From UHGV virus genome UHGV-1373670: a DNA stretch of 57,081 nt; one strand, written 5' to 3'. The notes under the pieces are model-generated. The model was not told the origin of the DNA, did not search any database, and was given only the letters and a program-made list of their open reading frames with translations. Below, piece after piece: positions 23,043 through 45,922 of this stretch (position 1 is its first letter; the number at the start of each line of letters is the position of its first letter). A program made the translations under genes and the position numbers. The stretch is from a virus.

Positions 23043-23109
23043 TCTGCAACAACTCACAACCATTTCGTTGGCTTCACCGAAATGGTTTTACAATACAACC
23101 CCGCACAAC

Positions 23110-25064: not shown

Positions 25065-25147
25065 ATTGCTTTACTCTATATGTCGTGTGCGCGCTAAGCT
25101 ATCACATTATCTTGCACCACATATAACATATAGAGCAGTAAACAGAT

Positions 25148-26933: not shown

Positions 26934-29900
26934 ATGCAGAACAACGATAAGACGCAAAAGAACTTATCAGGACTCCACAATACGCTGGAGACCATGGGCT
27001 ACTCAGTCCCAAACATTGACCAGTTCGCAAAGGATATGCGCAAGGAGGAAAACCTGCGCAGTGTCTACGACAAGGTATCTTCGGGAGGCTACGAGCTCCC
27101 CGACTTCGAAACCTTCAAGGCAGACATGGGATGGATAAAGCCAACGCCAGCGGGAGTGCCTGCACCACTGCGACCAAAGGATCAGCTCGCACCAACGGGC
27201 AAGCCTGGTGCACCCGCTACCCCCTTTGGCTTTGATCTCCCCGCCAATCCCAAGAAGCCCTCGCACGCACCTAAGGCGCGCCTGGGCTTCCCACGTCTTG
27301 ACAAGAAGATGCGCCCTGTGCAGGAGGTGAACGACCCAAGCGTACCACTGCTCAAGACAACTCGAGACGTCGCACAAGATGAGAATGGCAACGTCGTAAA
27401 CGTGGTACAGCCTGAGCTTGTCCCCGACTTCGACCCCAACAATGGCGGGGTGACCGCTCCCAAGGCTCTCTTGGACGTGACGACGGGTAAGACTATTCGC
27501 CCCACCGAGCTGAGCAAGGAGGAGGTAGACGGCTACAACGCTGGCAACATAGACGCGGTAAAAGATCCCAAGCTGCGTCAGGCTTTGAAGGAGGCTAATG
27601 TAATCTACACACCTACACTCACCGAGAGCGACGCACGACGTAAGGCGGGAGAGCTGACAAGCGAAATCGACAAGGCTCTTGCCGAGCGCACAGAGTACCT
27701 CGATAAGAAGATGGGAGAAGTGACCATAGCTGATAGCCCCACCGCCTGGGGTATCCGTGGCTTCAATATCCCCGCAGCCGCGAATAAGTCCCGTATCGAG
27801 CAGGCTAACGACAGCGAGTATATGATGCTGGAGGCTGCGCGTAGCACGATGCACGATGTGAACAACCTCATCGCAGAAGCCGACCACAACACCAAGGAGG
27901 GCGGAGACATTGCTTCTGTCTACGAGCGTAGTGCACTCGCAGGAACGCTCCGAGGCTTCGGCAGTACTATCATTGACCCACGTGTATGGGATCAGGGTGT
28001 CAGAGATCTATCCGCATCCTCTCGCCTTGCAATGGCTCTCGATAAGGCTGACCGAGGAGAGAAGCTCACACGAGGGGAACAGCTCCTTCTCGATGCCAAG
28101 GCTAACGAAATGGCAACGGCTCTCTACTTCGAGGACCGCATAGGCCGTGGGTATAAAGCAGGGAGTGTCACCGCTCACGCTATCCCCTTCATGGTGGAAA
28201 TGGCAATGAGTGGTGGTATCTCAACTATGGGGAAGAACGTGTCGTCGGGTCTTGCTCGCTATGCTATGCGACGCTTCGGAGCAAAGGCCGCAGGGAAAGC
28301 TATCATCAAGCGCACTATCCGTGGCGCAGCTACAACGGCTGGTGCTATGCTTGCTGGTGGTGCTATGGCAAACACCTTCGGGGCGATGAAAACTGCCGCG
28401 AATGTAGTGGGACGTACCGCGGGGGATGTTCAGTTCTCTACGGGCGTGGATGCCGAAGGGCGAGCAACGACTACCTACGGAGGTCACACCGAGGGCGACA
28501 GCTTGGGCGAAGCCTTCGTTAAGGGCGAGCTGTCAAACACAGCAGAATACGCTACGGAGCTATTGGGCGACGGGCTTGTCGATGTAGTGAAGTGGGCCGC
28601 AGGTAAGGTCGCTTCTCCTGTTGCCTCCAAGCTGGCTCAGCTTATCGGTAAGACTGGGGTGGAAGCGGCCGAGCAGGTAGGCAAGAAGTCAGTACTCGGG
28701 AAGGTGGCAGGCAGTGTCGGTGATGCTGGGGCATGGACCTTGGCAAAGGCGAGTAAGTTCATCGAGAACATGCAGGCCTCTAAGTTCGCAACCTCACTGA
28801 AAGCTCTTGAGAAGCAAGCGCAATGGAATGGTGTGTTTGGCGAATACCTCGAAGAGCTCGCCAATAACGCAGCCGCTGTGATGATTGGCGACAAGGATCT
28901 ATCAGCCGACAAGGGCAAGGGCTTCTTCAACCTGGACGACAATATCGATACCTTCCTCGGGGTCTCCCTTATGGGTGGTGTCATGAGCAGCGCACAGACC
29001 GCGGGCTATTTCGCTGGCGGTGGTGCACGTGGGATGGCACGCTATCAGATCGGGCAGAGCGAGGGTGCAGTGTGGAGTACGCTCACCACGGATGAGCAAC
29101 GCAAGGCGTGGGACGACGTGCGCAGACAGATCCTGCTCCAGGATGGTAAGGAGCAGGTAGACGCTGTGAAGTCTGCACTCACTAACCCCAACTTCAACGC
29201 AGAGCAGCGTCGCGCTATCCTCGACTACACCAAGTCGGTGCAGACCTACAAGGGTATGAGCGAGTACCGACGCAAGCAGAGCGAGGATGCCAAGGCAGAC
29301 CCATTACAGAACGAGCTGGCAGACTCTTACGATAAGGGCGCAGAGATGACCCAAGCCGAAGAGATGAGCCATGCACGCAGCTGGTATGAGTTCGCTCAGC
29401 AGAAGGCGGCAGAGCGTCTCGGGGTAGATGCTGATGCTCTCGATGAGATGGGAGCACCCGACCAGCTGACGCTCGACCAGGTGGCACAGCTGCGAGAGGA
29501 GCACAGCGAACAGGCAGTGCAGTCTTATGTGGACTACCTCAATGCACGTGCTACCTACGAGGGTATGATCGGGAGTGTCTCCCAAGGCATACAGGCTGAG
29601 GCAGCACAAGCCGAGCAGGCAGTGCGCTCACAGCAGCACAAGGACGGAACACTCCGTCGGGCTATACTCCGAGGCACGGAAGGGAATAAAGTCGAAGTGC
29701 ATATCAAGGATGGCGACCTTGTCATGGATGAGGAGGGCCGTATCGATACCGACAAGTCCAGTAAGGACTTCATCGTTCGCGATAACGAGACGGGCGTCGT
29801 GCGCTTCGCCAGCATCGACGACATTATCAGTGCAGAGCAGCCCACGAGTGCCGACGATGCAGTGAGCGAAGCGGTCAATGCCGTCTACGAACGCAGAGAA

Positions 29901-32900
29901 AAGGAAGCGGCCGACGCTATCAACGGGACTATCACCCCACAGGTAGGAGCAGTATACAATCTCCTCGATGCTGATGGCAACCCCCAGCAGATCGCTATCC
30001 AACAGGTAGGCCAGGACGGCACACTCGATGTGGACTACTCGGGCGTACCTCACAAGATGACTACCGACGACCTGCAGGCCATGGCGGACAACACACGCGC
30101 CCGACAGATCGAGAATGAGCATGCAGCCCAGGTACAGCAGGCCAAGGCTGAGGAGAGAGAGGAACGCGAGCAGGCAGGCCTCCCACGCTATGCACTCAAT
30201 GATGAGCTGACCATTCGCACCCCCGAAGGTGAGGAGGTCACAGCCTACGTCACCAACGAGGAGGATGCCGACGGGAATATCGAGGTGTACTTTAATGAGC
30301 CCTTCGATGGGAAGAAGGTGCACCTCTTCACTAAGGACTACCTCGACGGGGTGGTAGTGGGTACACGCCTCAGCCCCGAAAGCGACGGGAACACGCAGGC
30401 CGTGGAAGCTCCAGCCACTCCAGCAGCACCAGCCTTAGCGCAGGTACAGCCCGTATCTGAGGAAGTTCCCGAAGAGGCTACCACCGCACCAACACCTACC
30501 CAGGAAGAAGAGAACGACATCATCGGTCGAAGTATGACCGAAGAAGAAGCCGAAGCCTTCCTTACAGCTATCTCCAACAACCACGAGGTAGCCCCCGAAC
30601 TTGAGCTGACACCTGAGAATTGGTATGCTGAGTTTGGTGAGGATGGTATGGTGCACACGCCCATAGGGGATGCTCACATGGGAGAAAACCAGTTCCTCAA
30701 GATGATGCGCGATGGGAGAAAGAGTAAGCTCGGTATGATCCGTCCAACGCTTGAAGCTCCGCACGCTATTGTCGAAGAGCCAAGCACGGCCAAGGAAGGA
30801 CAAGAGACAGAACGAGACAGCTCATATATCTACATCCGCGTATTCGAAAAGGAAGATGGGAGTCGTCATTACCACTTCACCTCTGTGTCTGTACAGCGAG
30901 ATGGAGGTGAGGTAATCGTGTCTAATCAGGAGAAGAGTAGAAATCAGGTGAAGCGGTTGCTTACAGAAGGCGTAGTGCTTTGGATGCGCGCCGACAACGC
31001 ACCTGATACTTCGGACGTAGATCAAGACTTATACTCATCGCAGGGGACTGAATTGTCCGACCCCGCTTCTGAGGGCACGGATGCGTCTCAAAGCACGCCT
31101 TCTGAGAGCAAAGATAATGAAAGCACCTCACACGATGATCCCAACGACGAGAGTCTCTCACCCGAGGAAGCATACGAAGCGGTGTTGCGTGCAACCAATG
31201 GCGACGTAGCCCTCGCTCTCGAAGTCATCGAGAGCACCATTGCCGATAAGGAGAAGGTGCTTGCCAAGGCCAAGAAGGCCAAGCCACGTAGTGCCGACAC
31301 TATCGAGGGTAAGATCCAGGCGCGCGAAGAAGTAGCTGCTGGTATCGAAGCCGCAGAGGTATCACTCGCACATTGGCAGGCCGTCGCTGAGATCGCAGCC
31401 GAGCAGGTGCAGGAGGAAGTTGCAGAGGTAGCCGAGCCCGTCGCAGAGCAGACGGAGCAGGAGAGCGAAGAGCCTACGGCCGAGCAAGAGCCCGCAGAGG
31501 AAGAGGCTGCCGAGGAGCAAGAGCCCGAGGCGGAGCAGGAGGAAGAAGCTACCCCCACGCCCGAGGACACCGCACCTGAATGGGGCAAGGACAATCCAGC
31601 CGACGCACGCGCACGTGGGTACATTAAGGTAGAAGGCTTGCGAGTGGATCGTCAGGGGCAGCTCTCCGACGCACTCATAGGCAAGGAGTCTGACGTGAAG
31701 TTCGCAACGAATGACACACAGCAGGCTCACTACGCTATCATCGAAGCCGAAAGCCTGCAGCCAAGCCACATCAGAGGATACCAAAATCAGCTGCACTTTA
31801 TTCCCGAGGCACAGCCAAAGGATCGAAGCGACGTTGTCAGCGAGCAGGCGGCAGTACGTATCGCAGCTAATATCAATCCCGAGGAGATCACAACGAGTGC
31901 CACGGCTTACACGGGTGCTCCTACCATCAACGCACGTGGTGAGGTGATCCAGGGTAATAGCCGTGCCGACGCACTGCGTGCCGTGTGGGAGTCGTTCCGT
32001 GATACGAGCGGTGAGAAGTACAAGCAGTACCTCATCGAGAATGCAGAGGCCCTCGGTATTGATCCCGAGGCTATCGAGGGGATGAAGTCCCCCGTGCTGG
32101 TGCATCTTGCCGACGTCAGCGACGAGCGAGCTATCGAGCTCGGACAATACAGACAGACGGACATCGAGAGCGGTGGCGTCGAACGTATCAATCCGCAAAC
32201 GCTCTATGCTAAGATCGGGGAGAAGCGTGACACCTTCATTCACTTCCTACTGGTGACAAGCGACGACGACCTCAGCCTTGCCGAGTCCATCACACGCAAT
32301 GCGGCTGAGACGCTGAGCTGGCTCAACCGCCAGGGCTTTATCTCTGACACGCAATTCCGTAGTGCCTTCGGTGCTAAGGGTGAGATCACGGCAGAAGCTA
32401 AGGAGGACCTCCGCAATGCTTTGTACCGCTCCTTCTTTGAGGGCGCGCACAACAGCCTGGAGGCAGAGTTCTACAACCTGCCCAAGCGTACACAGCAGGC
32501 ACTACTCCGCGTCTCATATCGCGACCAGCAGAGCCCAGCAGATGCGCACTTCCTCGATGAACTTCAATCGTCGGTAAGTGCATACAATGCTCTCATGGGG
32601 TACACTCCATTCGCTGAGGCTAAGACCTTCGAGGATGCAGAGCGTGCTATTGAAACGTGGATGCGCTTCTCGGGTGACCTCATTACGGGTGAGGTGAACT
32701 CCGAGCAGTATAGTAACTTTGCTGTACAGCTCGCACTCCGCTATAAGTTCCTAACGCAGAAGGAGCTTATCTCAAAGCTCAATGCGGTGTACGACGCAGT
32801 GCAGGCCGTCTCCGAGGATACCCTCTTCGGAGAAGGCGAGGTAAACCCTAAGACGCTTGCCGAGGCGGTGGGCGAAGTGTTCAGCATAAATATCGACAAC

Positions 32901-38900: not shown

Positions 38901-41900
38901 GATCAGGTAGTCATCATGAAGCCCGGCATGGACGCTAAGAGAAAGAAGGCACTCTTCGACAAGGTCAATAGCGGTGAGGTGCGCGTCGTGCTCGGCTCAT
39001 CATTCACGCTGGGTACTGGGGTGAATATCCAGGAGCGACTGCACACGCTTATCCATGTGGACGCACCTAACCGACCAATGGACTATACCCAGCGCAATGG
39101 CCGTATCCTTCGCCAGGGAAACCTGCACAAGGAAATGGGCAAGCCCGTCCGCATCCTCCGCTTTGGCGTGGAAGATAGCCTTGACGTGACAGCCTACCAG
39201 CGTCTCAAGACGAAGGGGGCTATTGCGGATAGCATCATGCACGGGGCTGAATATATGGAGAACGCTCTTGAGCATCGAAGCATCGAAGAAGAGGGCGACA
39301 ACTTCGGGGATATGGTAGCTAACCTTTCGGGGAGTGAGTATGCCCTTCTGAAAAACCAAGCCGAGAAGGAGCTCCGCAAGCTGGAGACCAAGCGGAAGCA
39401 GTGGGAAGCGGACCAGCGTTATCTAAGCAAGGCTATCCCCGAGACGAAGCAGGAGATCGCAGGGCTTCGCGTCGTCGAGAAGAAGGCGGAGAGAACCCTC
39501 GCTGCCCTTGACGAGCTATTCCCAGGCGGCAAGGTCGATAAGATTGTAGTAGGCAAGCAGTCCTTCGGATCTGTGGACGAGATGAAGGAGTTCATCAAGG
39601 ACTACAACAAGTCGATCTCCGAAGCAGAAGCCGAGGTTAAGGAAGGCTTCGGCAATACCAGCGTGCAACGCTCGCTCACCTTATCGGTCAATGGTGTGGA
39701 CTTCGTGGTGAACACCAAGATCGAGAAGCACATGGAGCAGAAGGACAGCAAGCTGACGGCCGTGTCGAGACGTGTGATGACCTACTCATCTGAAAAGCTG
39801 GGTATCGAGAACACCCCCGTCCCAGGTATGCGTATTGCCAACGCCATAAAGGATATTACTGAGTCCGTCATCACGGGAGAGCGTGTACGCAACCTTGCCG
39901 CCAATGCGCAAGAGACCTACACACGCAAGGAGAAGGAGCTGGCACAAATGGAAGCACGTGCGGGTAAGCCCTTCGAACATGAAGAGGCCCTCGATAAGGC
40001 GCGCGAAGATGTGGCCAACTACGAAGAGCTTATGCAGAAGGAGCTTGAGGAGAAGGAAGCGAAGTACGCAGAGATGGACGCCCAGGTGAGCGCAGCCAAC
40101 AACGTGAGCAATGCGGAGGAAGATACCGAGGAAGCTAACGACGAGGAGGTGCGCTACCGCTCTGACGAGGAAGTCGAGCAAGATGATCTCGATATGCAGG
40201 ATCTCGAAGAGGTGGCCACCAGCATGGCAGAAGCCCTCGGGGAAAGCGTCCGCGTCATTCACGACACGTCAGAGATTGAAGGCCGCAGTGAAAGCGAGAC
40301 GAGACGCATGCGTGGTGCTAAGGGTTGGTATGATCCTAAGACGGGGCAGGTGGTAGTGGTGCTACCTAATGCAGAGAGCGCAGACGACGTCGAAGCTACT
40401 ATCCTCCATGAGGTCGTAGGGCACAAGGGCTTGCAGGAGCTTGTCGGTAAGGACCAGTTCGGCAAGTTCCTTGACGAGGTGTTCGAAGGTGCTAACGAAG
40501 CCGTGCGAAATGGTGTTGTCGAGCGAAGCAAGAGATACGGGTGGAACACCCGACTTGCCACCGAGGAGTATATCGCAGAGCTTGCCGAGCAGGGCTTCAA
40601 GGATCTCGAAGCACGCGACCTGTGGAACGTTGTACGCAACGCCTTCTATAACCTCCTCAGCCGAGTGAAGCTCGCGCTGGGCTGGGACATCAGCGACCGC
40701 GAACTTCGCTACATGCTTTGGCGCACGTATCAGATGAAGAAGGGCGAGGGCCTTATGGGGCAGGCTAAGGATATAGCCATGCAGGAGAAGCTGGGCGTAG
40801 GTAACTACGAAGAGGCCCGCTTCCGCCAGGGTGAGTCATCCGCCCCCGTAAAGGTGGCCGCCACCTATGATGCGCTTATCAAGAAGTCGAGCTATCAGAC
40901 GCAGGAGGCCCTCCAAGATAGCATGCTCTCGCTCAAGAAGGTCATGGAAATGATCATGCAGGCCAAGGGTGATGCTAAGTACATCGAGGAGATCGAGGGC
41001 TATCAAAATGCCTACATGGGAGAGAACAGAGTCTCGAGCGTAAACCAAGCAGAGGCCGCTGCATACAGCCGCATGGCACTTGAGCCCCTGGTGGAAGAGG
41101 TAAGCCGTCTTGCCAAGAAGGCTCACCACTCATACGTCACGGACTACATGATGGCTAAGCACGGGCTGGAGCGTAACCGCGTGATGGCCTTCCAAAAGGC
41201 CGTAGAGGCTGACGTCGACGCGCACAATAAGGCCGTCAAGGAAAGTGGCGAGGGCGAGGAGCTCACGGCAAGCAGTCTGTGGGATGCGTACCTCAATGAT
41301 ACGGATCGCCTGAGAAACGAAGCCGACTACCGCGAAGGGCGTATTACGGCTGACGTATGGCATAAGACAGACGACGAGATCCGTGCACGCTACGCACCGA
41401 GCTATGCTGAGTACCGCGAGCGAGACTATGCTGGTCTTACGGGCTTGCTTGATCGTCCCGACGTAGATATTCAGACGCTCGAAGAGGAGGCTATCGAAGA
41501 GGTCATGAAGTTCGAGAATGAGAACGACGTCACCGACCTATGGGAACTCACGAACAAGGCTACCGACGCACCGCTTGCAAAGCAGTACGAAGGAGGGCTT
41601 ATGAGCAGAGAGACGCTGGAGCACGTACGCAACATGTACGGGTACTACATACCTCTGCGAGGCTTCGATGAGACGACCAGCGACGAAGCATATAGCTACC
41701 TCGGTGACCGCGACCGCTCCTTCTCTCCCACGCTGAAGAAAGCCAAGGGCCGTAGCAGCAAGGCAGAGGACCCGCTCGCACACATCGCAAGTATGATGGA
41801 GTCAGCTATCTTGCAGAGCAACCGCAATAAGCTGGTGCGTCAGAAGTTCCTGAACTTCGTAGAGAACAACCCCAGCGACCTGTTCAGCGTGCAGAAGCTG

Positions 41901-43940
41901 TGGGTGAAGTGGAACGAGGTGACCAAGGCCTGGGAAGCTGTACTACCTGAGTTCGACCCAAGCGATACGAGCGAGGAGGTGATCCGTAAGACGCAGGAGT
42001 TCGAGGAAATGATGCGGGAGAACAAGAGAAAAGACCCGAAGAACTTCAAGCTGGCAAGCGAGCAGCCCTCTATCCCCTATCGCGTCGTCAGCCTGAGTGA
42101 GCAGATGCAGCACCAAATCATTGTCAAGCGCGGAGGCCGTGACGTTGTGATCATCGTCAATGGCGACCCACGTGTGGCAATGGCGGTGAATGGTCAGACC
42201 AACCCCGACGGGGAGGCTAAGGGGCATATCGGTGCGCTGTTCAGAGCTGGGGCAGCCGTGAATAGAAAGCTCGCAGGCTTCTATACGTCGCTCAGCCCTA
42301 ACTTCGTGGTGAAGAACTTCATCCGAGATATTATATACGCTAACACTATTGCGTGGGTCAAGGAGTCACCCACCTACGCAATGACCTACCACGCCAACGT
42401 AGCCAAGCTCGCAGGGCAGATGCACAGGCTTGTCCACCTCTATGAGCACGACAAGCTGGATATGTCCAACGAGACGCACCGCGCGTTTAAGCTCTTCATG
42501 AAGAATGGTGGAGAGACGGGCTACTCGCAGCTCCGTAGCATGGACCGCCATAAGAAGGAGATCGAGCGTATGATGAAGGAGTCAGGAGGACGTATTAGCC
42601 CCAAGCAGGCGTTCCGATTGCTGGGTGATACTATGGAGTTTGCCAACCGAGGTATCGAAGATCTCTCACGCTTCGCTGCGTTCCTGACGAGTAGACAGAT
42701 GGGCCGCACTATCGACCGATCTATCTACGACGCAAAGGAGATGACCGTGAACTTCAACAAGAAGGGAGCGGGCTCTACCTTCTATGATGCGACAACGCAA
42801 AGCAGGGTGGGTAATGCTGCGGCACTCCTTTCAGGTACGGGGCGTAGCTTATACCTCTTTTGGAATGTTGCTATCCAGGGGTCTGTGAACATCGCACGCG
42901 CTGTGAAGAGAAACCCCAAGAAGGGTACGGCATACCTGGCTACCTTCCTCGCTCTCGGTATTCTTCAGACGATGCTCCCAGCACTCACGGGTGGCGACGA
43001 TGATGACAGATACTGGAACTTGCCTGACTATGTAAGACGCAATAATATCTGTTTCTTTGTAGGAGACGTGCTTGTGAAGATCCCTCTACCCCAGGAAGCC
43101 CGCGCTATCTTCGGCATAGGTGAGCTCGGCATGAGCTACTCATCAGGGAAGGAAGACAAGACGCCCATGGAGCTGGCTCAGACTATCGCTGGTCAGATCT
43201 CTCAGGTGATGCCACTTGACCTCATGGACGACTCGGGGGCTACCCACGCACTCATGCCAAGCCTTGCTAAGCCCTTCTTCGAAGCACAGACTAACCACAG
43301 CTGGATGGGCCGTCCTATTTGGAAGGATACCGACTACAATAAGGCTATGCCCGACTGGACCAAGGCCTACAAGGCTACGGGCGGTGCTTACGTATGGCTC
43401 GCGAAGGAGCTGAACGCGCTCACGGGTGGTGACGACTACAAACAGGGATGGGTAAACATCAACCCTGCGAAGCTGGAGTACATGCTCAAGGGTTACCTCG
43501 GTGGGCTCTACACAGCGGCCGATCAGATAATCAAGTCCAGCGAGACCGCCTTCGGTGATCGTGAGTTCTCGATGCGTGACGTGCCTATCCTCTCGGGCTT
43601 CCTCGACGGGGCTGACGAACGCAACGATATGCGCAATGTCAATAACACGTACTACCACTTCAAGGAAGAAGCTAAGGAGGTCCTGCGCCTGGGTAAGTCC
43701 TACGAGAGTGATCTCGAGCAAGGCAAGAGTGACTCCACGGACTACGCTAAGAAGCTCGACGAGCTGGTGAACACCAAATCGTATGAGCGTGCGCTGCTCT
43801 TCGAGGATCTCAGTAAGGAGATCGAGGAGATGCAGAAGGCCCTGAAGGAGGCTACCGACCCTAAGGAGGCAGAGGAGCTACAGGCAGAGATTGACAAACA
43901 GAAGAAGGCACTGGTGATCCAGCTGCGCCAAATGAAATAA
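26934..43940 (+). CDS. giant polyvalent protein (5668 aa): ParB-like nuclease-fold domain, N6-adenine DNA methyltransferase, SNF2-family helicase, HExxH zincin-like metallopeptidase and additional uncharacterised regions
   Basis: Single uninterrupted 17-kb ORF. Motifs read directly from the translation: VIQGNSRADALRAV (ParB/Srx-like GxxR), ILEGSAGIGS and TNVPF (methyltransferase motifs I and IV), LAHEVGTGKT and LIDEAHEYK (helicase motifs I and II), QRNGRILRQGN (helicase motif VI), ILHEVVGHKG (HExxH). Confidence 0.8.
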   Translation: MQNNDKTQKNLSGLHNTLETMGYSVPNIDQFAKDMRKEENLRSVYDKVSSGGYELPDFETFKADMGWIKPTPAGVPAPLRPKDQLAPTGKPGAPATPFGFDLPANPKKPSHAPKARLGFPRLDKKMRPVQEVNDPSVPLLKTTRDVAQDENGNVVNVVQPELVPDFDPNNGGVTAPKALLDVTTGKTIRPTELSKEEVDGYNAGNIDAVKDPKLRQALKEANVIYTPTLTESDARRKAGELTSEIDKALAERTEYLDKKMGEVTIADSPTAWGIRGFNIPAAANKSRIEQANDSEYMMLEAARSTMHDVNNLIAEADHNTKEGGDIASVYERSALAGTLRGFGSTIIDPRVWDQGVRDLSASSRLAMALDKADRGEKLTRGEQLLLDAKANEMATALYFEDRIGRGYKAGSVTAHAIPFMVEMAMSGGISTMGKNVSSGLARYAMRRFGAKAAGKAIIKRTIRGAATTAGAMLAGGAMANTFGAMKTAANVVGRTAGDVQFSTGVDAEGRATTTYGGHTEGDSLGEAFVKGELSNTAEYATELLGDGLVDVVKWAAGKVASPVASKLAQLIGKTGVEAAEQVGKKSVLGKVAGSVGDAGAWTLAKASKFIENMQASKFATSLKALEKQAQWNGVFGEYLEELANNAAAVMIGDKDLSADKGKGFFNLDDNIDTFLGVSLMGGVMSSAQTAGYFAGGGARGMARYQIGQSEGAVWSTLTTDEQRKAWDDVRRQILLQDGKEQVDAVKSALTNPNFNAEQRRAILDYTKSVQTYKGMSEYRRKQSEDAKADPLQNELADSYDKGAEMTQAEEMSHARSWYEFAQQKAAERLGVDADALDEMGAPDQLTLDQVAQLREEHSEQAVQSYVDYLNARATYEGMIGSVSQGIQAEAAQAEQAVRSQQHKDGTLRRAILRGTEGNKVEVHIKDGDLVMDEEGRIDTDKSSKDFIVRDNETGVVRFASIDDIISAEQPTSADDAVSEAVNAVYERREKEAADAINGTITPQVGAVYNLLDADGNPQQIAIQQVGQDGTLDVDYSGVPHKMTTDDLQAMADNTRARQIENEHAAQVQQAKAEEREEREQAGLPRYALNDELTIRTPEGEEVTAYVTNEEDADGNIEVYFNEPFDGKKVHLFTKDYLDGVVVGTRLSPESDGNTQAVEAPATPAAPALAQVQPVSEEVPEEATTAPTPTQEEENDIIGRSMTEEEAEAFLTAISNNHEVAPELELTPENWYAEFGEDGMVHTPIGDAHMGENQFLKMMRDGRKSKLGMIRPTLEAPHAIVEEPSTAKEGQETERDSSYIYIRVFEKEDGSRHYHFTSVSVQRDGGEVIVSNQEKSRNQVKRLLTEGVVLWMRADNAPDTSDVDQDLYSSQGTELSDPASEGTDASQSTPSESKDNESTSHDDPNDESLSPEEAYEAVLRATNGDVALALEVIESTIADKEKVLAKAKKAKPRSADTIEGKIQAREEVAAGIEAAEVSLAHWQAVAEIAAEQVQEEVAEVAEPVAEQTEQESEEPTAEQEPAEEEAAEEQEPEAEQEEEATPTPEDTAPEWGKDNPADARARGYIKVEGLRVDRQGQLSDALIGKESDVKFATNDTQQAHYAIIEAESLQPSHIRGYQNQLHFIPEAQPKDRSDVVSEQAAVRIAANINPEEITTSATAYTGAPTINARGEVIQGNSRADALRAVWESFRDTSGEKYKQYLIENAEALGIDPEAIEGMKSPVLVHLADVSDERAIELGQYRQTDIESGGVERINPQTLYAKIGEKRDTFIHFLLVTSDDDLSLAESITRNAAETLSWLNRQGFISDTQFRSAFGAKGEITAEAKEDLRNALYRSFFEGAHNSLEAEFYNLPKRTQQALLRVSYRDQQSPADAHFLDELQSSVSAYNALMGYTPFAEAKTFEDAERAIETWMRFSGDLITGEVNSEQYSNFAVQLALRYKFLTQKELISKLNAVYDAVQAVSEDTLFGEGEVNPKTLAEAVGEVFSINIDNNTEEDGSTGSSSPGSDLEGSNGGEQEGQGTPGGNEQDQSRAGTPERRGGAASNPQEGEGVTTETEEVAPEAGDTQASDATGEEEVRPSITSKVRNEYVAPAYDKSMPREEKEAVLERVNQELKEAEAEAVKAIKDANVALKEYYHSGAMPGVRNIAYVNAQREVVIRAHSGLPIEASNPFLTMPGLSDIIDPIAEAKQKKDVLTALKSEIEDDLNEDEEGPKPTKPKKGSTKKKGDKKTTEKEEEKPLPQPRKVSLEGLMGALHATGEARLSDHIEEEEVEADTTNGMRPVTIEDIDAGVTNVYHNGEEHAILSTFNDTHALLDNMQKAPISELQIKEEASEAGPEATEETAPRELEDMSEEELIALTDNEDTDGDTLWRIRGILQSRSRIDTYSADAHILSNPNVPDDLIEAISLGRGWYVSNGNTSSRAFRLLSQRRMMQAVEHTNEVAEQQEKEEKEEARVKNEGQFGLVSDERMQELKARMKKKLRGQLNAGVDPEVLAIGLELAVGYIDRGLSKFSRFAETLINELGEDVRPYIKAFYNGARDMPELVESGLSAEMDSYDAVNGFDIANFGKEESPEIIEQARHVAKEQEAQKLMTEVKEQQAEANATENNGTEEVHVPARTSTGEREAGEEHRSDEPLGTPAEGQAKQPKQKRVDRRSVEDTLTDDQRGGGVPEQLDQSVEAPKGDKPAKRNTRNWREKKGEDNSPKSDAARIKANIDAIKLSKEILNEGREATQAEKAILAQWTGWGGLGAAFNEYSAPYATLRMLLTEDELREANESRLTAYYTPAKIIDQIWDAVSALGFKGGNILEGSAGIGSMLARMPKGVSDVSNIQAVEIDSITGGILSLLYPDADVHIKGFQNTKVAPGSVSLAITNVPFVTGLKVHDDTGFSDLSRKFGKNIQDFCIAKNVRTLAPNGLGVFITSSGTLDKSRDLRLWLTDKDGGNSDVVGAFRLNNETFIGTSVTSDIIIVRKRGENGEKLAGAINITETTPVRTGKYTDYSGERATTREVALSYNDYFVQHPENMGGEMKLAFENGATYRATSAGLYPTPNIDQDKLLTAWVRSMKKIDMAKVDPNEGARTGVTSGKDLSGYKIGEVFVQKDGSVAIVSTNKGITIAESFANDGKKVRSKYTKAQVVEDYRAIKKALNELIDYQLQASEDSTGKLKELQQALNTAYDTFVERYGNLNKNVAISFLSNDIDWPSVQAIEKFEEKANVDGSKTKIYGKTDIFSSRIIDPKTQEKPTDPTQAVKASILSFGRVDLQYLSDALSISEEEAKKAALATGLAFENPSTGVVESRYAYLSGNVREKLAAAEANNEGGKYDVNISALREVMPQDIPAHLLPYSFGASWIPAKVFEEFVQERTGVRVSLSKHGGGWVMTTKSDDYTEANKALGVYSELRHEYILGTELMDVAINLKTKIVSKTESFGYGKDRTTKTTTDKAATAAVSDKADELRQDFVDWMQAKVQEDDKLAEQLTTKYNMEMNNYVPMTMPDDFVPTHFEGASNKITLRPHQAKAAIRATTQPVLLAHEVGTGKTFTMISAAMEMRRLGTAKKPMIVVQNATVGQFVNSAKLLYPQAKILTLSDADKGPEGRKRFYANVMYNDWDMIIIPQSTFDKIPDSEERKRTYIEEKIREKREVIEAMKEDKDAARSAVYRAKVRELQDLEKEVAKSSRPAIDAKAEAKSRMNAEAKAQQMLDRKVDEGVYEFDDLGIDALLIDEAHEYKHLGFETAMGRDIKGIDPSYSNKSQGLYLKIQSVMEKTGGRNILFATGTPISNTAAEIWTFMRYLMPREDMEAYNISNFDDFVRNYGRVQTQLEFSTDGRFKANKRFVGYDGLSELVRIWSQVSDTVLTSNSPEVLEKIPELEGTKATDIFLPQTPGLRSVMLFVKERLADFDKMSGAEKKENSHIPLTMYGIAKAAAVDPRLVINDAPDEPMSKTNEAVRQALQSLEETKEYKGTVAIFSDIYNNKVSGFNLYEDIRKKLIEAGVPEDQVVIMKPGMDAKRKKALFDKVNSGEVRVVLGSSFTLGTGVNIQERLHTLIHVDAPNRPMDYTQRNGRILRQGNLHKEMGKPVRILRFGVEDSLDVTAYQRLKTKGAIADSIMHGAEYMENALEHRSIEEEGDNFGDMVANLSGSEYALLKNQAEKELRKLETKRKQWEADQRYLSKAIPETKQEIAGLRVVEKKAERTLAALDELFPGGKVDKIVVGKQSFGSVDEMKEFIKDYNKSISEAEAEVKEGFGNTSVQRSLTLSVNGVDFVVNTKIEKHMEQKDSKLTAVSRRVMTYSSEKLGIENTPVPGMRIANAIKDITESVITGERVRNLAANAQETYTRKEKELAQMEARAGKPFEHEEALDKAREDVANYEELMQKELEEKEAKYAEMDAQVSAANNVSNAEEDTEEANDEEVRYRSDEEVEQDDLDMQDLEEVATSMAEALGESVRVIHDTSEIEGRSESETRRMRGAKGWYDPKTGQVVVVLPNAESADDVEATILHEVVGHKGLQELVGKDQFGKFLDEVFEGANEAVRNGVVERSKRYGWNTRLATEEYIAELAEQGFKDLEARDLWNVVRNAFYNLLSRVKLALGWDISDRELRYMLWRTYQMKKGEGLMGQAKDIAMQEKLGVGNYEEARFRQGESSAPVKVAATYDALIKKSSYQTQEALQDSMLSLKKVMEMIMQAKGDAKYIEEIEGYQNAYMGENRVSSVNQAEAAAYSRMALEPLVEEVSRLAKKAHHSYVTDYMMAKHGLERNRVMAFQKAVEADVDAHNKAVKESGEGEELTASSLWDAYLNDTDRLRNEADYREGRITADVWHKTDDEIRARYAPSYAEYRERDYAGLTGLLDRPDVDIQTLEEEAIEEVMKFENENDVTDLWELTNKATDAPLAKQYEGGLMSRETLEHVRNMYGYYIPLRGFDETTSDEAYSYLGDRDRSFSPTLKKAKGRSSKAEDPLAHIASMMESAILQSNRNKLVRQKFLNFVENNPSDLFSVQKLWVKWNEVTKAWEAVLPEFDPSDTSEEVIRKTQEFEEMMRENKRKDPKNFKLASEQPSIPYRVVSLSEQMQHQIIVKRGGRDVVIIVNGDPRVAMAVNGQTNPDGEAKGHIGALFRAGAAVNRKLAGFYTSLSPNFVVKNFIRDIIYANTIAWVKESPTYAMTYHANVAKLAGQMHRLVHLYEHDKLDMSNETHRAFKLFMKNGGETGYSQLRSMDRHKKEIERMMKESGGRISPKQAFRLLGDTMEFANRGIEDLSRFAAFLTSRQMGRTIDRSIYDAKEMTVNFNKKGAGSTFYDATTQSRVGNAAALLSGTGRSLYLFWNVAIQGSVNIARAVKRNPKKGTAYLATFLALGILQTMLPALTGGDDDDRYWNLPDYVRRNNICFFVGDVLVKIPLPQEARAIFGIGELGMSYSSGKEDKTPMELAQTIAGQISQVMPLDLMDDSGATHALMPSLAKPFFEAQTNHSWMGRPIWKDTDYNKAMPDWTKAYKATGGAYVWLAKELNALTGGDDYKQGWVNINPAKLEYMLKGYLGGLYTAADQIIKSSETAFGDREFSMRDVPILSGFLDGADERNDMRNVNNTYYHFKEEAKEVLRLGKSYESDLEQGKSDSTDYAKKLDELVNTKSYERALLFEDLSKEIEEMQKALKEATDPKEAEELQAEIDKQKKALVIQLRQMK
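31660..32200 (+). other. domain within the giant protein: ParB/Srx-fold nuclease-like domain
   Basis: GEVIQGNSRADALRAVWESF around nt 31943-31978, preceded by a strongly acidic E/A/Q tract (31380-31560). Confidence 0.45.
35080..35900 (+). other. domain within the giant protein: gamma-class N6-adenine DNA methyltransferase
   Basis: Motif I (GNILEGSAGIGS, about 35340-35370) precedes motif IV (NVPF, 35541-35552). Confidence 0.7.
37430..39130 (+). other. domain within the giant protein: SNF2/DEAH-family helicase (N- and C-terminal lobes)
   Basis: AHEVGTGKT (about 37505), DEAH (about 38080), QRNGRILRQGN (about 39091). Confidence 0.75.
40330..40480 (+). other. domain within the giant protein: HExxH zinc metallopeptidase-like motif region
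   Basis: DVEATILHEVVGHKGLQELVG (HEVVGH at 40407-40424). Confidence 0.5.
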
Positions 43941-43951: not shown

Positions 43952-45922
43952 ATGAATACCTACACTAAGAAGCTACGTCGGCTAAGCCAGGTTGGCGGGC
44001 AAAAGAAGATTGACTCCGTTGGATCTACCAAGCACCACGGGGAGTACAACCGAGCTATGGGCGTACTCCTCGAGGCGCGTCGTAGCTGGGACGCCATGTC
44101 ACGTTTCCGAAAGGATCGCGAGCGGTGCAAGCGGTACACCTACGGGGATCAGTGGAAGGATGTCGTCAATGTGGACGGCAAGACGATGACCGAGGAGAAG
44201 TATATCATGGAACAAGGCAGCGTCCCATTGAAGAACAACCTCATCCGTCGCCTTGTGCGTAACGTCCTCGGTGCATACCTCAAGCAGACGAAAGAGCCCG
44301 TATGCGTGGCGCGAGACAGAGACGAGCAGCGACTCGGAGAGACGATGAGCACGATCCTCCAGTACAATATGCAGCTCAATAGCATGACCGAGCTTGGTGC
44401 GCGCTCTATGGAGGAGTTCGTCATCAGTGGGCTAACGGTCCAGCATAAGAGCTACGGGGTGCGTGAGGGTCGCCTGGACTGCTGGACGCGCATTGTCAAT
44501 CCGAGTATGTTCTTCTTGGACTCCAATTCACAGGACGTACGCGGGTGGGACGTGAGTATCATTGGAGAGATCCATGATATTGACTTACAAACGCTCTTCC
44601 GAGAGTTTGCCAGCAGCCGCGAGGAGTGTGAACGCCTACGTGAGATCTACCGCTATGCACGCGACGGGGATTACGTGAGTCAATACTTTTCGGATTTCCC
44701 TGACTTCGGGTATAGCGATGCACGTACTTACGACTTCTTCACGGGTCGCGACCCCCGTCGCTGTCGTGTCATCGAGGTATGGCGCAAGGAGACGAAGGAG
44801 CGTTACTTGTGCCACGACCCCAACAACGGGGAGGTATACAAGATCGAGACGGAGGACTACGGGAAGATGGTAGAGGCTGTGAATAGAGACCGCATGGCAA
44901 TGGCCGCTGAGCAGGGGATCCCCGAGGAGGATGTGCCACTAATCGAGGCGACGTGGTTTGTAGACGATTATTGGTACTTCTACTACCTAAGTCCATTCGG
45001 TCATATCCTAAAGGAGGGAGAGACCCCATACCACCACAAGAGCCACCCCTATGTCTTCAAGGCCTACCCCTTCATTGATGGGGAGATCCACTCCTTCGTC
45101 TCCGACGTCATCGACCAGCAGCGATATACGAACCGCCTCATCACGCTATACGACTGGGTAATGCGCTCAAGCGCGAAGGGGGTACTTCTTATCCCAGAGG
45201 ATAGCGTGCCCGATAATATGACTCTCGAGGAGTTCGGGGAAGAGTGGAGTCGCTTCAACGGGGTGATCGCCTTTACTCCCAACAAGCAGGGGGTACTTCC
45301 CCAGCAGATCTCGAGCAACGCCACGAATATCGGCATCGGGGAGCTACTGAATATCCAGCTCAAGCTCTTCGAAGATGTGTCAGGGGTGCATGGTGCGCTG
45401 CAGGGTAAGCCAGGCTTTGCTGGTATGAGCTCCAGCCTATACGCTCAGCAGACGCAGAACGCGACGAACTCGCTGGTGGATCTCATGGATAGCTTTAGCG
45501 CGTTCACGATCCAGGGGGCGTATAAGGATGTGAAGAACATTCAGCAGTTCTACGATGAGAAGCGCGTGGTGAATATCGCGGGCAATGACTCGAGCCTACT
45601 CCCCGACGATCCCCGCAAGATCCGTGATATTGAGTTCGACCTCTCTATTGCTGAGAGCTCCTCGAGCCCTGCATATCGACAGCTCGCTAATGAGTTCCTC
45701 CTCGAGGTATGGAAGGCTGGTCAGATCACGCTCAACCAGCTATTGGAGGTGGGCGACTTCCCATTTGCGGACAAGCTCTTGCAGAGCCTCGACTCGCAAG
45801 CTGAGCAGATGAAGCAGGGCATAGCCCCCGAAGGGATAAGCCCCGAAATGCAGCAGCAGGCTATGGCTATGGCTGATCCAGCTGCCGTAGAAATGGCCCA
45901 CCGAGCCATCACGGCAAACTAA
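43952..45922 (+). CDS. portal protein (candidate)
   Basis: 656 aa; immediately downstream of the giant (MuF-position) gene and convergent with the large terminase gene. Assigned by size and position only. Confidence 0.5.
   Translation: MNTYTKKLRRLSQVGGQKKIDSVGSTKHHGEYNRAMGVLLEARRSWDAMSRFRKDRERCKRYTYGDQWKDVVNVDGKTMTEEKYIMEQGSVPLKNNLIRRLVRNVLGAYLKQTKEPVCVARDRDEQRLGETMSTILQYNMQLNSMTELGARSMEEFVISGLTVQHKSYGVREGRLDCWTRIVNPSMFFLDSNSQDVRGWDVSIIGEIHDIDLQTLFREFASSREECERLREIYRYARDGDYVSQYFSDFPDFGYSDARTYDFFTGRDPRRCRVIEVWRKETKERYLCHDPNNGEVYKIETEDYGKMVEAVNRDRMAMAAEQGIPEEDVPLIEATWFVDDYWYFYYLSPFGHILKEGETPYHHKSHPYVFKAYPFIDGEIHSFVSDVIDQQRYTNRLITLYDWVMRSSAKGVLLIPEDSVPDNMTLEEFGEEWSRFNGVIAFTPNKQGVLPQQISSNATNIGIGELLNIQLKLFEDVSGVHGALQGKPGFAGMSSSLYAQQTQNATNSLVDLMDSFSAFTIQGAYKDVKNIQQFYDEKRVVNIAGNDSSLLPDDPRKIRDIEFDLSIAESSSSPAYRQLANEFLLEVWKAGQITLNQLLEVGDFPFADKLLQSLDSQAEQMKQGIAPEGISPEMQQQAMAMADPAAVEMAHRAITAN

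What the first reader, a model, noticed from the sequence alone, without database searches (positions are those of the whole stretch)
26934..43940. 5668-aa polyvalent protein: ParB-like fold, N6-adenine methyltransferase, SNF2 helicase and HExxH peptidase in one ORF, sitting at the MuF position next to the portal gene
One 17-kb reading frame fuses at least four enzymatic modules and several long uncharacterised regions. These include a glycine-zipper-like hydrophobic segment near aa 400-500, a strongly acidic tract and about 1.5 kb of C-terminal sequence with no motif I recognise. It follows two small glycine-rich and proline/alanine-rich proteins and immediately precedes the portal gene, the classical position of the head-morphogenesis MuF/gp7 gene. 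This is the architecture of the polyvalent proteins that are packaged into capsids and injected with the DNA to counter host restriction; P1 DarB is a methyltransferase-helicase of this class. At 5668 aa it would be among the largest phage proteins, and about 60% of its length carries no recognisable domain, leaving room for undescribed effector modules.
Basis: partly seen in the sequence, partly recalled or inferred. Interest (0 to 1): 0.85.

Follow-up and report, generated by a model that had tools for sequence, protein, structure and literature searches.

The report
Giant DarB-like polyvalent phage protein
One 5,668-residue gene of a temperate gut Bacteroidales phage joins a DNA methylase, a helicase, nuclease-like domains and other modules to a conserved tail module found in virion proteins of other phages; it is a very large but recognisable member of the 'polyvalent proteins' that phages are thought to package and inject to blunt host defences.

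Summary
The ORF is real: 26934-43940, 5,668 aa, 627 kDa, about 30% of the contig. The same product is called on independent assemblies.

Profile searches confirm a ddrB-type ParB domain, a DarB-type N6-adenine methylase (NVPF motif, as in P1 DarB) and an SNF2 helicase. They add LPD14, PBECR2 and LPD38. The "HExxH peptidase" is not confirmed. The conserved motif is HExxxH (HEVVGH, aa 4492), and its model matches no solved zincin. There is no MuF domain.

The gene ends a three-gene cassette: a 172-aa T7-gp14-like protein, a 415-aa protein, then the giant ORF. The cassette runs into a P22-type portal gene.

The last ~1,040 aa form one conserved, mostly helical module with no solved homologue. The same module ends virion-associated giant proteins of Bcep22-like phages (JC1 gp69). 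Sequence relatives are annotated in Stx phages such as 933W, and phi24B gp47 is a virion protein carrying LPD38.

Sibling Bacteroides phages carry syntenic 5,391-5,553-aa versions, one already annotated "DarB-like antirestriction". One sibling has swapped the methylase-helicase pair for a non-homologous pair.

Verdict: a new, very large member of a known kind, most likely a capsid-packaged, injected anti-restriction and ejection protein. Interest is moderate to low.

The parts
25148..25666 (+). 172-aa small protein with an N-terminal glycine-zipper hydrophobic segment (aa 1-29). It is T7-gp14-like (internal virion protein) and is the first gene of the cassette.
   Evidence: Pfam T7_gp14 E 0.0024, below threshold. 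18 of 45 family members hit T7_gp14 at E<0.01, best 5e-7. Hydrophobic segment. 52% identical to BKO1-TP3 gp57. 969 representative clusters at E<1e-3.
25669..26916 (+). 415-aa Pro/Ala-rich, coiled-coil-like protein; second gene of the cassette; function unknown.
   Evidence: No Pfam, PHROG or PADLOC hit. Conserved in BKO1-TP3 gp56 (41% over 119 aa) and BS-TP4 gp2.
26934..43940 (+). Giant polyvalent ORF, 5,668 aa, 627 kDa, pI 4.9.
27924..30491 (+). N-terminal region (aa 331-1186) conserved among the Bacteroides-phage orthologues. It includes LPD14 (aa 577-692, nt 28662-29009) and an Ala/Gly-rich stretch at aa 400-500.
   Evidence: Pfam LPD14 E 1e-15. blastp to BS-TP4 gp3 and BKO1-TP3 gp55.
30627..30983 (+). 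PBECR2 domain (predicted Barnase/EndoU/colicin-E5/RelE-like RNase), aa 1232-1350.
   Evidence: Pfam PBECR2 E 5e-11. In relatives P0069, P0071 and P0076 the same domain sits at a different place in the protein.
31374..31613 (+). Acidic low-complexity tract, aa 1481-1560.
   Evidence: 24 of 60 residues are D/E. Weak 15-nt tandem repeat.
31713..32105 (+). ddrB-type ParB/Srx superfamily domain, aa 1594-1724.
   Evidence: Pfam ddrB-ParB E 4.8e-26. Conserved in both sibling phages.
34314..34790 (+). Conserved domain preceding the methylase, aa 2461-2619. This may be where the precomputed 'faint' PF28553 WH_1 hit lies; its position was not shown.
   Evidence: Conserved in BS-TP4, BKO1-TP3 and DC1 gp67. 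PF28553 listed (faint) for the identical product. phrog_14770 and phrog_10089.
35028..35861 (+). DarB-type N6-adenine DNA methyltransferase, aa ~2699-2976. Motif I is EGSAGIGS; motif IV is NVPF at aa 2870.
37443..39287 (+). SNF2-family (SF2) ATPase/translocase, aa ~3504-4118. GTGKT at aa 3529, DEAH at aa 3716, Helicase_C at aa 3949-4062.
40203..40823 (+). Conserved HExxxH domain, aa 4424-4630. H4492, E4493, H4497 and E4545 are invariant. It is a candidate derived zincin metallopeptidase; the fold is unconfirmed.
   Evidence: A3 invariants. AF2 model pLDDT 82. Pfam DUF6782 only E 0.11. No PDB match by profile or by Foldseek. hhalign to a SprT/DUF6782-type domain E 0.11.
40821..43937 (+). C-terminal ~1,040-aa module, aa 4630-5668. 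It is mostly helical, has about 68 invariant residues, and always ends the protein. It contains a hydrophobic segment (aa 5332-5354, nt 42927-42995) and Pfam LPD38 (aa 5357-5553, nt 43002-43592). Inferred to be the virion-incorporation/ejection module.
43952..45922 (+). P22-type portal protein, starting 12 nt after the giant ORF's stop.
   Evidence: Pfam P22_portal E 1e-43; phrog_156 E 3e-90. The adjacency is conserved in 72 of 76 IMG/VR loci.

Best explanation
The ORF is a phage-type polyvalent protein of a temperate Bacteroidales phage. By gene content the phage looks podovirus-like (P22-type portal, SU10-type capsid protein).

Proposed mechanism:
1. The protein is made late, together with the two small proteins upstream.
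2. A few copies are loaded into the capsid near the portal (inferred).
3. It is expelled with or ahead of the DNA at infection (inferred).
4. The conserved C-terminal ~1,040-aa LPD38-containing module is the part that gets the protein into the virion and out through the tail. It plays the role that internal-core/ejection proteins play in T7-like and P22-like phages (inferred from homologues).
5. The rest is payload. A DarB-type N6-adenine methylase coupled to an SNF2 dsDNA translocase tracks along the entering genome and protects it in cis from restriction (inferred from P1 DarB).
6. A ddrB-type ParB domain, a PBECR2 RNase-like domain and several uncharacterised regions add further activities.
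7. The HExxxH domain between payload and delivery module may cut the polyprotein into working pieces (speculative).

Shown here: the ORF, the domains, the homologies and the synteny. Not shown here: packaging, injection, methylation, anti-restriction activity and processing.
For: Class membership:
- Pfam LPD14, PBECR2, ddrB-ParB, SNF2/Helicase_C and LPD38 all hit. phrog_10089 'DarB-like antirestriction' scores up to 1e-217.

DarB homology:
- blastp to P1 DarB gives three collinear pieces. Profile A2 against DarB gives E 1.4e-104. Both proteins carry motif IV NVPF.

Catalytic motifs are invariant across homologues, and structure-anchored profile hits reach M.TaqI and SNF2 ATPases.

Virion context:
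- The gene order is integrase | gp14-like 172 aa | 415 aa | giant | portal, with terminase, capsid and tail genes following.
- The same order occurs in Bacteroides phages BKO1-TP3 and BS-TP4.
- The portal follows the module within 12-140 nt in 72 of 76 IMG/VR loci.

Experimental anchors in homologues:
- Burkholderia phage JC1 gp69 (4,515 aa, DarB-like) is virion-associated by mass spectrometry with 51 peptides. So are the two proteins encoded just upstream, gp67 (196 aa) and gp68 (510 aa). JC1 and DC1 match both the methylase-helicase block (28% over ~1,900 aa) and the C-terminal module (E 4e-41; HMM 6e-68) collinearly.
- phi24B gp47 (2,811 aa, with LPD38) is found in virions by proteomics but is not seen in the cryo-EM reconstruction. 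Its authors propose an ejection protein. Sequence relatives of the module are annotated in 933W and other Stx phages (E ~1e-33).
- A PTXU04 polyvalent protein matches the module by fold. PTXU04 gp25, a 2,198-aa polyvalent protein, is needed for plaque formation in CRISPRi-ART. I did not verify that these are the same protein.

Payload modularity:
- BS-TP4 gp3 keeps the N-terminal region, the ParB domain and the C-terminal module. It replaces the DarB-type methylase-SNF2 pair with InPase plus an N6_Mtase and a Strawberry-notch-type helicase. This argues that selection acts on a methylase-helicase pair in this slot.
- In the database, 110 proteins share the C-terminal module behind varied ART, PBECR, MuF_C, InPase and RadC domains.
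Against: - No experiment exists for this phage or its close relatives. The Bacteroides-phage paper does not discuss the gene.
- The gp14 link is weak. The window protein scores E 0.0024, below Pfam's cut-off, and hhalign and BLAST against T7 gp14 itself find nothing.
- No lytic transglycosylase domain was found, unlike T7 gp16 and the Bcep22-like giants.
- P1 DarB needs DarA, Hdf and other partners for packaging. No such partners were identified here.
- The peptidase fold is unconfirmed.
- About 40% of the protein (aa 1-570, 700-1230, 1730-2440) still has no assignment.
Confidence: 0.75

Rival explanations
1. The protein is not packaged. It is a late-expressed cytoplasmic enzyme complex that methylates or remodels progeny phage DNA before packaging, and its position next to the portal reflects only late co-expression.
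Against: Collinear homologues are physically in virions: JC1 gp69 and phi24B gp47. P1 DarB is a head component that acts in cis on injected DNA (Iyer 2017). The module-then-portal synteny is near-universal in this family.
Confidence: 0.1
2. It is essentially a structural ejection or internal-core protein, and the enzymatic domains are decayed passengers with no activity.
For: PTXU04 encodes a polyvalent protein that is needed for plaque formation on a laboratory host, and a PTXU04 protein shares this module by fold. That suggests an essential structural role. phi24B gp47 is proposed to be an ejection protein.
Against: The methylase and helicase catalytic motifs are invariant across relatives at 23-50% identity. 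A sibling phage replaced the pair with a different methylase-helicase pair rather than losing it.
Confidence: 0.07
3. It is a MuF/SPP1-gp7-type head-morphogenesis protein carrying effector fusions, as the first reader suggested from its position.
For: It is adjacent to the portal gene. Some relatives carry a MuF_C domain (P0009 and P0103). Iyer et al. describe MuF-effector fusions.
Against: Neither Phage_Mu_F nor MuF_C hits this protein at E<=0.1, nor at E<=5 on the unassigned segments. The gene is upstream of the portal. The conserved anchor is the LPD38-containing module, not MuF.
Confidence: 0.04
4. The long ORF is an artefact (assembly chimera, or frameshifted genes read as one), or it belongs to a conjugative element rather than a phage.
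For: Extreme length. Polyvalent proteins are also common on conjugative elements.
Against: The identical 5,668-aa product occurs on independent assemblies. Orthologues of 5,391 and 5,553 aa occur in isolated phages. ORFs stay open across the whole 10-kb flank in 41 of 50 prophage loci, including cultured strains. The neighbours are portal, terminase, capsid, integrase and repressor genes. All three diagnostic domains are phage-type only.
Confidence: 0.01

Closest known systems
Bacteroides phage BKO1-TP3 gp55 (5,553 aa, GenBank 'DarB-like antirestriction') and BS-TP4 gp3 (5,391 aa, 'hypothetical')
   Same: Same gene order: integrase, small protein, medium protein, giant, portal. BKO1-TP3 aligns over aa 2-1204, 1367-2011 and 2439-5666 (46% identity in the last piece). 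Both share the N-terminal region, the ddrB-ParB domain and the C-terminal module.
   Different: Only 24-46% identity. This phage has about 55% GC and no close prophage match, so the host species is unknown. BS-TP4 carries InPase plus an N6_Mtase and a Strawberry-notch-type helicase in place of the DarB-type methylase-SNF2 block. This protein is slightly longer than either.
DarB-like giant virion proteins of Bcep22-like and Ralstonia podoviruses (Bcep22 gp75, JC1 gp69 4,515 aa, DC1 gp67 4,650 aa)
   Same: Collinear architecture: pre-methylase domain, methylase, SNF2 helicase and the C-terminal LPD38-containing module (28% over ~1,900 aa; module E 4e-41). Each is preceded by small and medium virion proteins. 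JC1 gp69 is in virions by mass spectrometry.
   Different: The proteobacterial proteins are annotated with an N-terminal lytic transglycosylase. This one instead has about 2,400 aa holding LPD14, PBECR2, ddrB-ParB and unassigned regions. In those phages the gene lies at the end of the structural module next to the lysis genes, not next to the portal.
Phage P1 DarB (2,255 aa), with P1 DdrB
   Same: Homologous methylase-helicase pair with the same NVPF motif IV (profile E 1.4e-104). The ParB domain is of the DdrB type. P1 darB also lies beside the P1 portal gene prt.
   Different: P1 splits these functions over separate proteins (DarB, DdrB) and needs DarA, Hdf, DdrA and Ulx. P1 is a myovirus. 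P1 DarB was not compared with the C-terminal module (A1) here. This protein is 2.5 times longer.
LPD38-bearing polyvalent proteins of Stx phages (phi24B gp47, 2,811 aa; the 933W 'LPD5 domain-containing protein') and of E. coli phage PTXU04 (gp25, 2,198 aa)
   Same: Share the C-terminal module: tblastn E ~1e-33 over 64% of the module for 933W and other Stx phages, and BFVD TM 0.52 for a PTXU04 protein. phi24B gp47 is a virion protein proposed to act in ejection. PTXU04 gp25 is needed for infection.
   Different: From the domains reported for them, those proteins carry other payloads (LPD5, LPD1, MuF_C), not the methylase-helicase or ParB domains found here.
T7 internal core/ejection proteins gp14-gp15-gp16
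   Same: A small-medium-large, co-directional three-gene cassette in the virion module. The first protein belongs to a family with many weak-to-moderate hits to Pfam T7_gp14.
   Different: No detectable similarity to T7 gp14 itself. The module has no fold match to any solved structure, T7 gp15/gp16 included. No transglycosylase domain. This is an analogy of role and layout, not shown homology.

Membership tests
Polyvalent proteins (Iyer, Burroughs, Anand, de Souza, Aravind 2017) | A single large polypeptide (often >2,000 aa) joining several enzymatic, DNA-binding and LPD domains | tested here: met
   5,668 aa with LPD14, PBECR2, ddrB-ParB, methylase, SNF2 helicase, HExxxH domain and LPD38.
Polyvalent proteins (Iyer, Burroughs, Anand, de Souza, Aravind 2017) | Encoded by a phage next to packaging/late genes (phage type), with phage-type-only domains | tested here: met
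   Portal, terminase, capsid, integrase and repressor genes are neighbours. The paper lists LPD38, ddrB-ParB and PBECR2 as phage-only.
Polyvalent proteins (Iyer, Burroughs, Anand, de Souza, Aravind 2017) | Transferred into the host cell with the DNA | not testable with these tools
   Indirect only: homologues are found in virions.
P1 DarB-like antirestriction proteins | N6-adenine methylase plus SF2/SNF2 helicase pair homologous to P1 DarB | tested here: met
   blastp in three collinear pieces; profile A2 against DarB E 1.4e-104; shared NVPF motif. phrog_10089. M.TaqI and SNF2 profile hits.
P1 DarB-like antirestriction proteins | Component of the virion head | not testable with these tools
   JC1 gp69, a collinear homologue, is virion-associated by mass spectrometry. 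There are no data for this phage.
P1 DarB-like antirestriction proteins | Protects incoming DNA in cis from type I restriction | not testable with these tools
   Known for P1 only.
P1 DarB-like antirestriction proteins | Depends on partner proteins (DarA, Hdf, DdrA, Ulx) for packaging | not tested
   No targeted search was made. The two upstream proteins have no hit to anything but T7_gp14.
MuF / SPP1 gp7 head-morphogenesis proteins | Phage_Mu_F domain (with or without MuF_C) | tested here: not met
   No MuF or MuF_C hit at E<=0.1 on tiles covering the whole protein, nor at E<=5 on the unassigned segments. MuF_C is present only in some relatives.
MuF / SPP1 gp7 head-morphogenesis proteins | Gene immediately downstream of the portal gene | tested here: not met
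   The giant ORF ends 12 nt upstream of the portal start.
T7-type internal virion (ejection) proteins gp14/gp15/gp16 | gp14-family small protein heading the cassette | tested here: inconclusive
   The window protein scores E 0.0024, below the Pfam cut-off. 18 of 45 family members hit at E<0.01, best 5e-7. No similarity to T7 gp14 itself.
T7-type internal virion (ejection) proteins gp14/gp15/gp16 | gp15/gp16-like fold, or the gp16 lytic transglycosylase domain | tested here: not met
Zincin metallopeptidases (MPTase of polyvalent proteins, SprT/DUF6782-like) | HExxH motif plus a third metal ligand on the zincin fold | tested here: inconclusive
   The motif is HExxxH, with invariant H4492, E4493, H4497 and E4545. 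Pfam DUF6782 E 0.11. hhalign to a SprT/DUF6782-type domain E 0.11, with the same strand-then-HE layout. A good model (pLDDT 82) finds no PDB match by Foldseek. No PDB profile hit.

The most novel reading that the evidence does not exclude
The conserved ~1,040-aa C-terminal module is an undescribed, essential ejection device shared by several podovirus lineages (Bacteroidales prophages, Stx phages, Bcep22-like phages, Vibrio phages). It has no solved structural relative. In the DarB-type giants it would tether an SNF2 dsDNA translocase at the cell envelope. The motor would then actively reel the genome into the cell while the fused methylase marks it. DNA entry and protection from restriction would be one coupled machine, rather than an accessory enzyme that merely rides along.
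Probability: 0.1. Interest if true: 0.7.

Novelty: new member of a known kind. Interest (0 to 1): 0.3.

Why it matters
This prophage family is widespread in gut Bacteroidales (Bacteroides, Phocaeicola, Prevotella, Muribaculaceae, Alistipes and Leyella). It spends about 30% of its genome on one gene. That level of investment implies that getting past host restriction, or getting DNA in at all, is a dominant cost for these phages.

Practical value:
- The locus shows a clear chassis-plus-payload design: a constant N-terminal region and a constant C-terminal module, with swappable methylase-helicase pairs between them. That design could guide engineering of Bacteroides phages and points to where new anti-defence modules may sit. 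The ~2,300 unassigned residues are the obvious place to look.
- It highlights a ~1,000-aa module with no solved structure that is found in virion proteins of other phages. A PTXU04 protein sharing it by fold may be the polyvalent protein that phage needs for infection.

None of this changes the classification. The class, its Pfam domains and close orthologues are already described.

Tried and rejected
- Whole-protein and 5,000-aa homology searches failed, on the length limit and a time-out. I used three sub-queries instead. That database holds only fragments of up to ~2,200 aa of such proteins, so the N-terminal 1,200 aa gave just 4 hits and could not be modelled.
- megablast of 21 kb against phage records found nothing.
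- phmmer of both halves against PDB sequences gave nothing useful.
- NCBIfam gave only partial helicase hits, far below the cut-offs. PADLOC gave only generic methylase and helicase hits.
- I searched for a MuF domain, a lytic transglycosylase, an ADP-ribosyltransferase and further BECR nucleases with Pfam tiles and E<=5 scans of the unassigned segments. Only PBECR2 was found.
- The peptidase fold of the HExxxH domain was tested by PDB profile, Foldseek and hhalign. All were negative or borderline.
- T7 gp14 compared with the 172-aa protein by BLAST and hhalign: no similarity.
- No sizeable internal tandem repeats occur in the ORF.
- The assembly-artefact and conjugative-element readings were rejected.
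Full report
**1. The observation**

The window holds one ATG-to-stop reading frame at 26934-43940 on the + strand. It is 5,668 codons long with no internal stop. Shuffled versions of the same DNA carry about 228 in-frame stops, minimum 185, and the GC content of the three codon positions is steady along the whole frame. The product would be 627 kDa with pI 4.9, and the gene takes 29.8% of the 57,081-nt window. The identical 5,668-aa product is called on independent public assemblies (Logan ERR589398, ENA ERZ27262983). Near-identical copies of its 3' third occur on about 15 IMG/VR contigs. Sequencing or assembly error is therefore excluded as the origin of the long frame.

**2. Domains**

Pfam on overlapping 800-aa tiles gives these hits:
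- LPD14 (aa 577-692, E 1e-15)
- PBECR2 (aa 1232-1350, E 5e-11)
- ddrB-ParB (aa 1594-1724, E 5e-26)
- SNF2-rel_dom and ResIII (aa ~3504-3607)
- Helicase_C (aa 3949-4062)
- LPD38 (aa 5357-5553, E 5e-41)

PHROGs place aa ~2000-4400 and the C-terminus in phrog_10089 'DarB-like antirestriction' (E down to 1e-217). They place aa ~2700-2975 in phrog_11801 'DNA methyltransferase'.

Pfam-A does not recognise the methylase directly, so I tested it separately:
- An alignment with 21 homologues has invariant G-x-G (motif I, EGSAGIGS), E-x-D ('AVEID') and N-x-P-F (NVPF, aa 2870).
- The profile of that alignment hits M.TaqI at 2e-5, type I M subunits, and SNF2/ISWI ATPases at ~1e-13 among solved structures.
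- PADLOC MTase_II hits at 3e-6.
- More distant homologues carry Pfam N6_Mtase/Eco57I and JGI's name 'N12 class adenine-specific DNA methylase'.
- P1 DarB aligns in three collinear pieces. It is hit by the profile at E 1.4e-104 and has the same unusual NVPF motif.

**3. The 'HExxH peptidase'**

The only literal HExxH is HEYKH at aa 3719. It is the tail of helicase motif II (DEAHEYKH) and is meaningless as a peptidase motif. The conserved candidate is HEVVGH at aa 4492, an HExxxH motif. It lies in a ~200-aa domain (aa 4424-4630) where H4492, E4493, H4497, G4499 and E4545 (in ATEEYIAELAE) are invariant across 23 sequences.

The evidence for a peptidase fold is mixed:
- The AlphaFold model is confident (pLDDT 82). 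It shows three short strands followed by the motif-bearing helix, which is the order expected of a minimal zincin.
- Foldseek against the PDB finds nothing (best E 0.75), and a profile search of PDB sequences finds nothing.
- Pfam gives only DUF6782 ('putative metallopeptidase') at E 0.11.
- hhalign against a SprT/DUF6782-type domain of a relative gives E 0.11, though with the same 'G-x-Y...IVV...HE' layout.

I treat it as a candidate, derived metal-binding or peptidase domain that remains unproven.

**4. The C-terminal module**

A database search with aa 4400-5668 found 110 proteins. In these, aa ~4630-5668 is always the C-terminal end. It is preceded by varied polyvalent-protein domains: ART-PolyVal, PBECR1/2, MuF_C, InPase, RadC, LPD1/3/5/13/23. 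In some relatives PBECR2 sits between the HExxxH domain and this module. That placement defines the boundary near aa 4630-4655.

- Thirty aligned sequences share about 68 invariant residues.
- The AlphaFold model (pLDDT 74, pTM 0.67) is mostly helical with two small sheets.
- In the viral structure library it matches, over ~1,050 columns at TM 0.5-0.72 and 13-30% identity, the last chunk of many phage polyvalent proteins. These include Ralstonia phage Alix, E. coli phage PTXU04, and proteins containing LT_GEWL or RelA/SpoT domains.

So the module is a single conserved unit roughly five times longer than Pfam's LPD38, and it has no solved relative. By sequence it occurs in 366 phage records. 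These include 933W and other Stx phages, BcepIL02, JC1, and Ralstonia and Vibrio phages. It also occurs in at least 588 IMG/VR loci. The protein's only strongly hydrophobic segment (aa 5332-5354) lies inside it.

**5. Context**

The neighbours are those of a temperate tailed phage:
- CI/S24 repressor (21733-22431)
- tyrosine integrase of the Bacteroidetes type (23026-24429)
- the three-gene cassette
- P22-type portal (43952-45922)
- large terminase (45981-48125, minus strand)
- SU10-type major capsid protein (49933-51357)
- tail genes
- on the other side, RecT, an SbcC-like nuclease, a replication initiator and a DnaC-like loader

The 172-aa protein that opens the cassette has an N-terminal glycine-zipper hydrophobic segment and a sub-threshold hit to Pfam T7_gp14 (E 0.0024). 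Its family is large, with 969 representative clusters, and 18 of 45 members hit T7_gp14 at E<0.01, best 5e-7. T7 gp14 itself shows no similarity by BLAST or hhalign. The 415-aa protein has no hit anywhere.

No MuF domain was found, and the giant gene lies upstream of the portal rather than downstream. The 'MuF position' is therefore not the right analogy. A small-medium-giant internal-virion-protein cassette is a better one.

**6. Relatives**

- The capsid protein is 63% identical to those of the isolated temperate Bacteroides phages BKO1-TP3 and BS-TP4.
- Both phages have the same order: (integrase) small, medium, giant, portal. Their giants are 5,553 aa (annotated 'DarB-like antirestriction') and 5,391 aa ('hypothetical'). 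The paper describing them does not discuss the gene.
- BKO1-TP3 aligns along almost the whole protein.
- BS-TP4 aligns at aa 331-1186, 1361-2066, 2461-2619 and 4422-5668, but not over the methylase-helicase block. In its place BS-TP4 has InPase, a Pfam-recognisable N6_Mtase and a Strawberry-notch-type helicase (AAA_34 plus Helicase_C_4). A methylase-helicase pair has therefore been replaced by a non-homologous pair in the same slot. This is good comparative evidence that this function is what selection maintains there.
- Portal homologues (47-63% identity) occur in prophages across Bacteroidales, including cultured Phocaeicola massiliensis, Bacteroides congonensis, B. neonati, Leyella stercorea and Duncaniella muris.
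- In 41 of 50 loci with at least 9 kb of upstream sequence, an ORF stays open over the entire 10-kb flank.
- In 72 of 76 evaluable IMG/VR loci the portal follows the module within 12-140 nt on the same strand.

Giant genes at this position are the norm for the family.

**7. Mechanism**

Three sets of published experiments on homologues anchor the inference.
- In the Bcep22-like podovirus JC1, the 4,515-aa DarB-like gp69 is virion-associated by mass spectrometry (51 peptides). So are gp67 (196 aa) and gp68 (510 aa), encoded just upstream (PMC9144972). JC1 and DC1 match this protein collinearly in the pre-methylase domain, the methylase, the helicase and the C-terminal module.
- In Stx phage phi24B, the 2,811-aa LPD38-bearing gp47 is found in virions by proteomics but is absent from the cryo-EM reconstruction. 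It is proposed to be an encapsidated ejection protein (bioRxiv 10.64898/2026.04.10.717836).
- In E. coli phage PTXU04, knock-down of the 2,198-aa polyvalent protein gp25 strongly reduces plating (PMC11879866). A PTXU04 polyvalent protein shares the module by fold; I did not verify that it is gp25.

P1 DarB is a head protein that protects incoming DNA in cis from type I restriction (as summarised in PMC5512222).

Putting these together, I infer that the C-terminal module gets the protein into the capsid and out at infection. The methylase-SNF2 pair would act on the entering genome. The other domains (ddrB-ParB, PBECR2, unassigned regions) would be further payloads. The HExxxH domain may process the polyprotein, as Iyer et al. 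proposed for MPTase domains.

I estimate the likelihood of each step as follows:

| Step | Likelihood |
|---|---|
| Membership of the polyvalent-protein class | ~0.95 |
| Packaging and injection | ~0.8 |
| Anti-restriction by the methylase-helicase pair | ~0.6 |
| Delivery role of the C-terminal module | ~0.5 |
| Self-processing | ~0.3 |

**8. Comparison and novelty**

Every recognisable element is described in Iyer et al. 2017 and in Pfam. The closest orthologues are in GenBank, one with the same functional label. The size is at the top of what I saw: 5,668 aa against 5,553, 5,391, 4,650 and 4,515, with a 3,764-aa podophage homologue described in PMC6606913. This is a matter of degree.

Three points emerged here that I did not find stated in the papers read:
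- the full extent (~1,040 aa) and breadth of the C-terminal module, and its lack of any solved relative;
- the HExxxH form of the putative metal site;
- the displacement of one methylase-helicase pair by another between sibling phages.

About 40% of the protein (aa 1-570, 700-1230, 1730-2440) remains unassigned and could hide new effectors.

**Verdict:** a new member of a known kind. Interest 0.3.

Noticed in passing
window 2-72 and 56993-57081: Both ends of the window lie in the same 18-nt tandem repeat, CCAGGTCCAAAGGGCGAC, which encodes collagen-like PGPKGD units. The first and last 18 nt are identical. The contig is probably a circular or permuted genome of about 57 kb whose assembly broke inside a collagen-like repeat, possibly of a tail-fibre gene.
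   Followed up: partly
window 15825-16068: An array of roughly 20 copies of an 11-nt unit (TACCTTnnnnn) lies inside the replication-initiator ORF (15354-16505, minus strand). It looks like iterons of a phage replication origin.
   Followed up: no
window 48068-48571 (-): A 167-aa ORF next to the large terminase gene carries a Pfam Rhomboid hit on the identical public locus (L004). Its counterpart in the Bacteroides phages is annotated as a rhomboid-domain protein. A phage-encoded rhomboid-like membrane protein in the packaging region is unusual.
   Followed up: no
L002 (Bacteroides phage BS-TP4) 1511-17686: The sibling giant protein gp3 keeps the N-terminal region, the ddrB-ParB domain and the C-terminal module. 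It carries InPase plus an N6_Mtase and a Strawberry-notch-type helicase where this protein has the DarB-type methylase-SNF2 pair. This is a non-homologous replacement of the same functional pair. The GenBank record also starts inside the gp14-like gene (gp1 is a truncated 79-aa piece).
   Followed up: yes
L169 (phage P1) 1003-9387: P1 darB lies directly beside the P1 portal gene prt, transcribed divergently, and P1 DarB carries the same NVPF motif IV as this protein.
   Followed up: partly
window 9576-11381 (-), repeats at 10173-10261 and 10773-10861: Three tandem paralogous ORFs of about 197-200 aa, with an 89-nt direct repeat (85% identity) spaced 600 nt apart at their junctions. Function unknown.
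   Followed up: no
window 24430-25147: The gap between the integrase and the cassette holds a 94-aa minus-strand ORF (24780-25064; basic N-terminus MAKGRKTGGRKPG...). A similarly placed small minus-strand ORF (gp58) occurs in BKO1-TP3. The BS-TP4 linear record starts just downstream of this point, so the attachment site may lie in this gap.
   Followed up: no
L089-L168 (genome contigs): Portal homologues of this phage family appear in bins labelled Staphylococcus, Akkermansia, Oscillibacter, Lachnospiraceae and others, as well as in many Bacteroidales. The non-Bacteroidales labels are most likely binning errors of metagenome-assembled genomes rather than real hosts.
   Followed up: no
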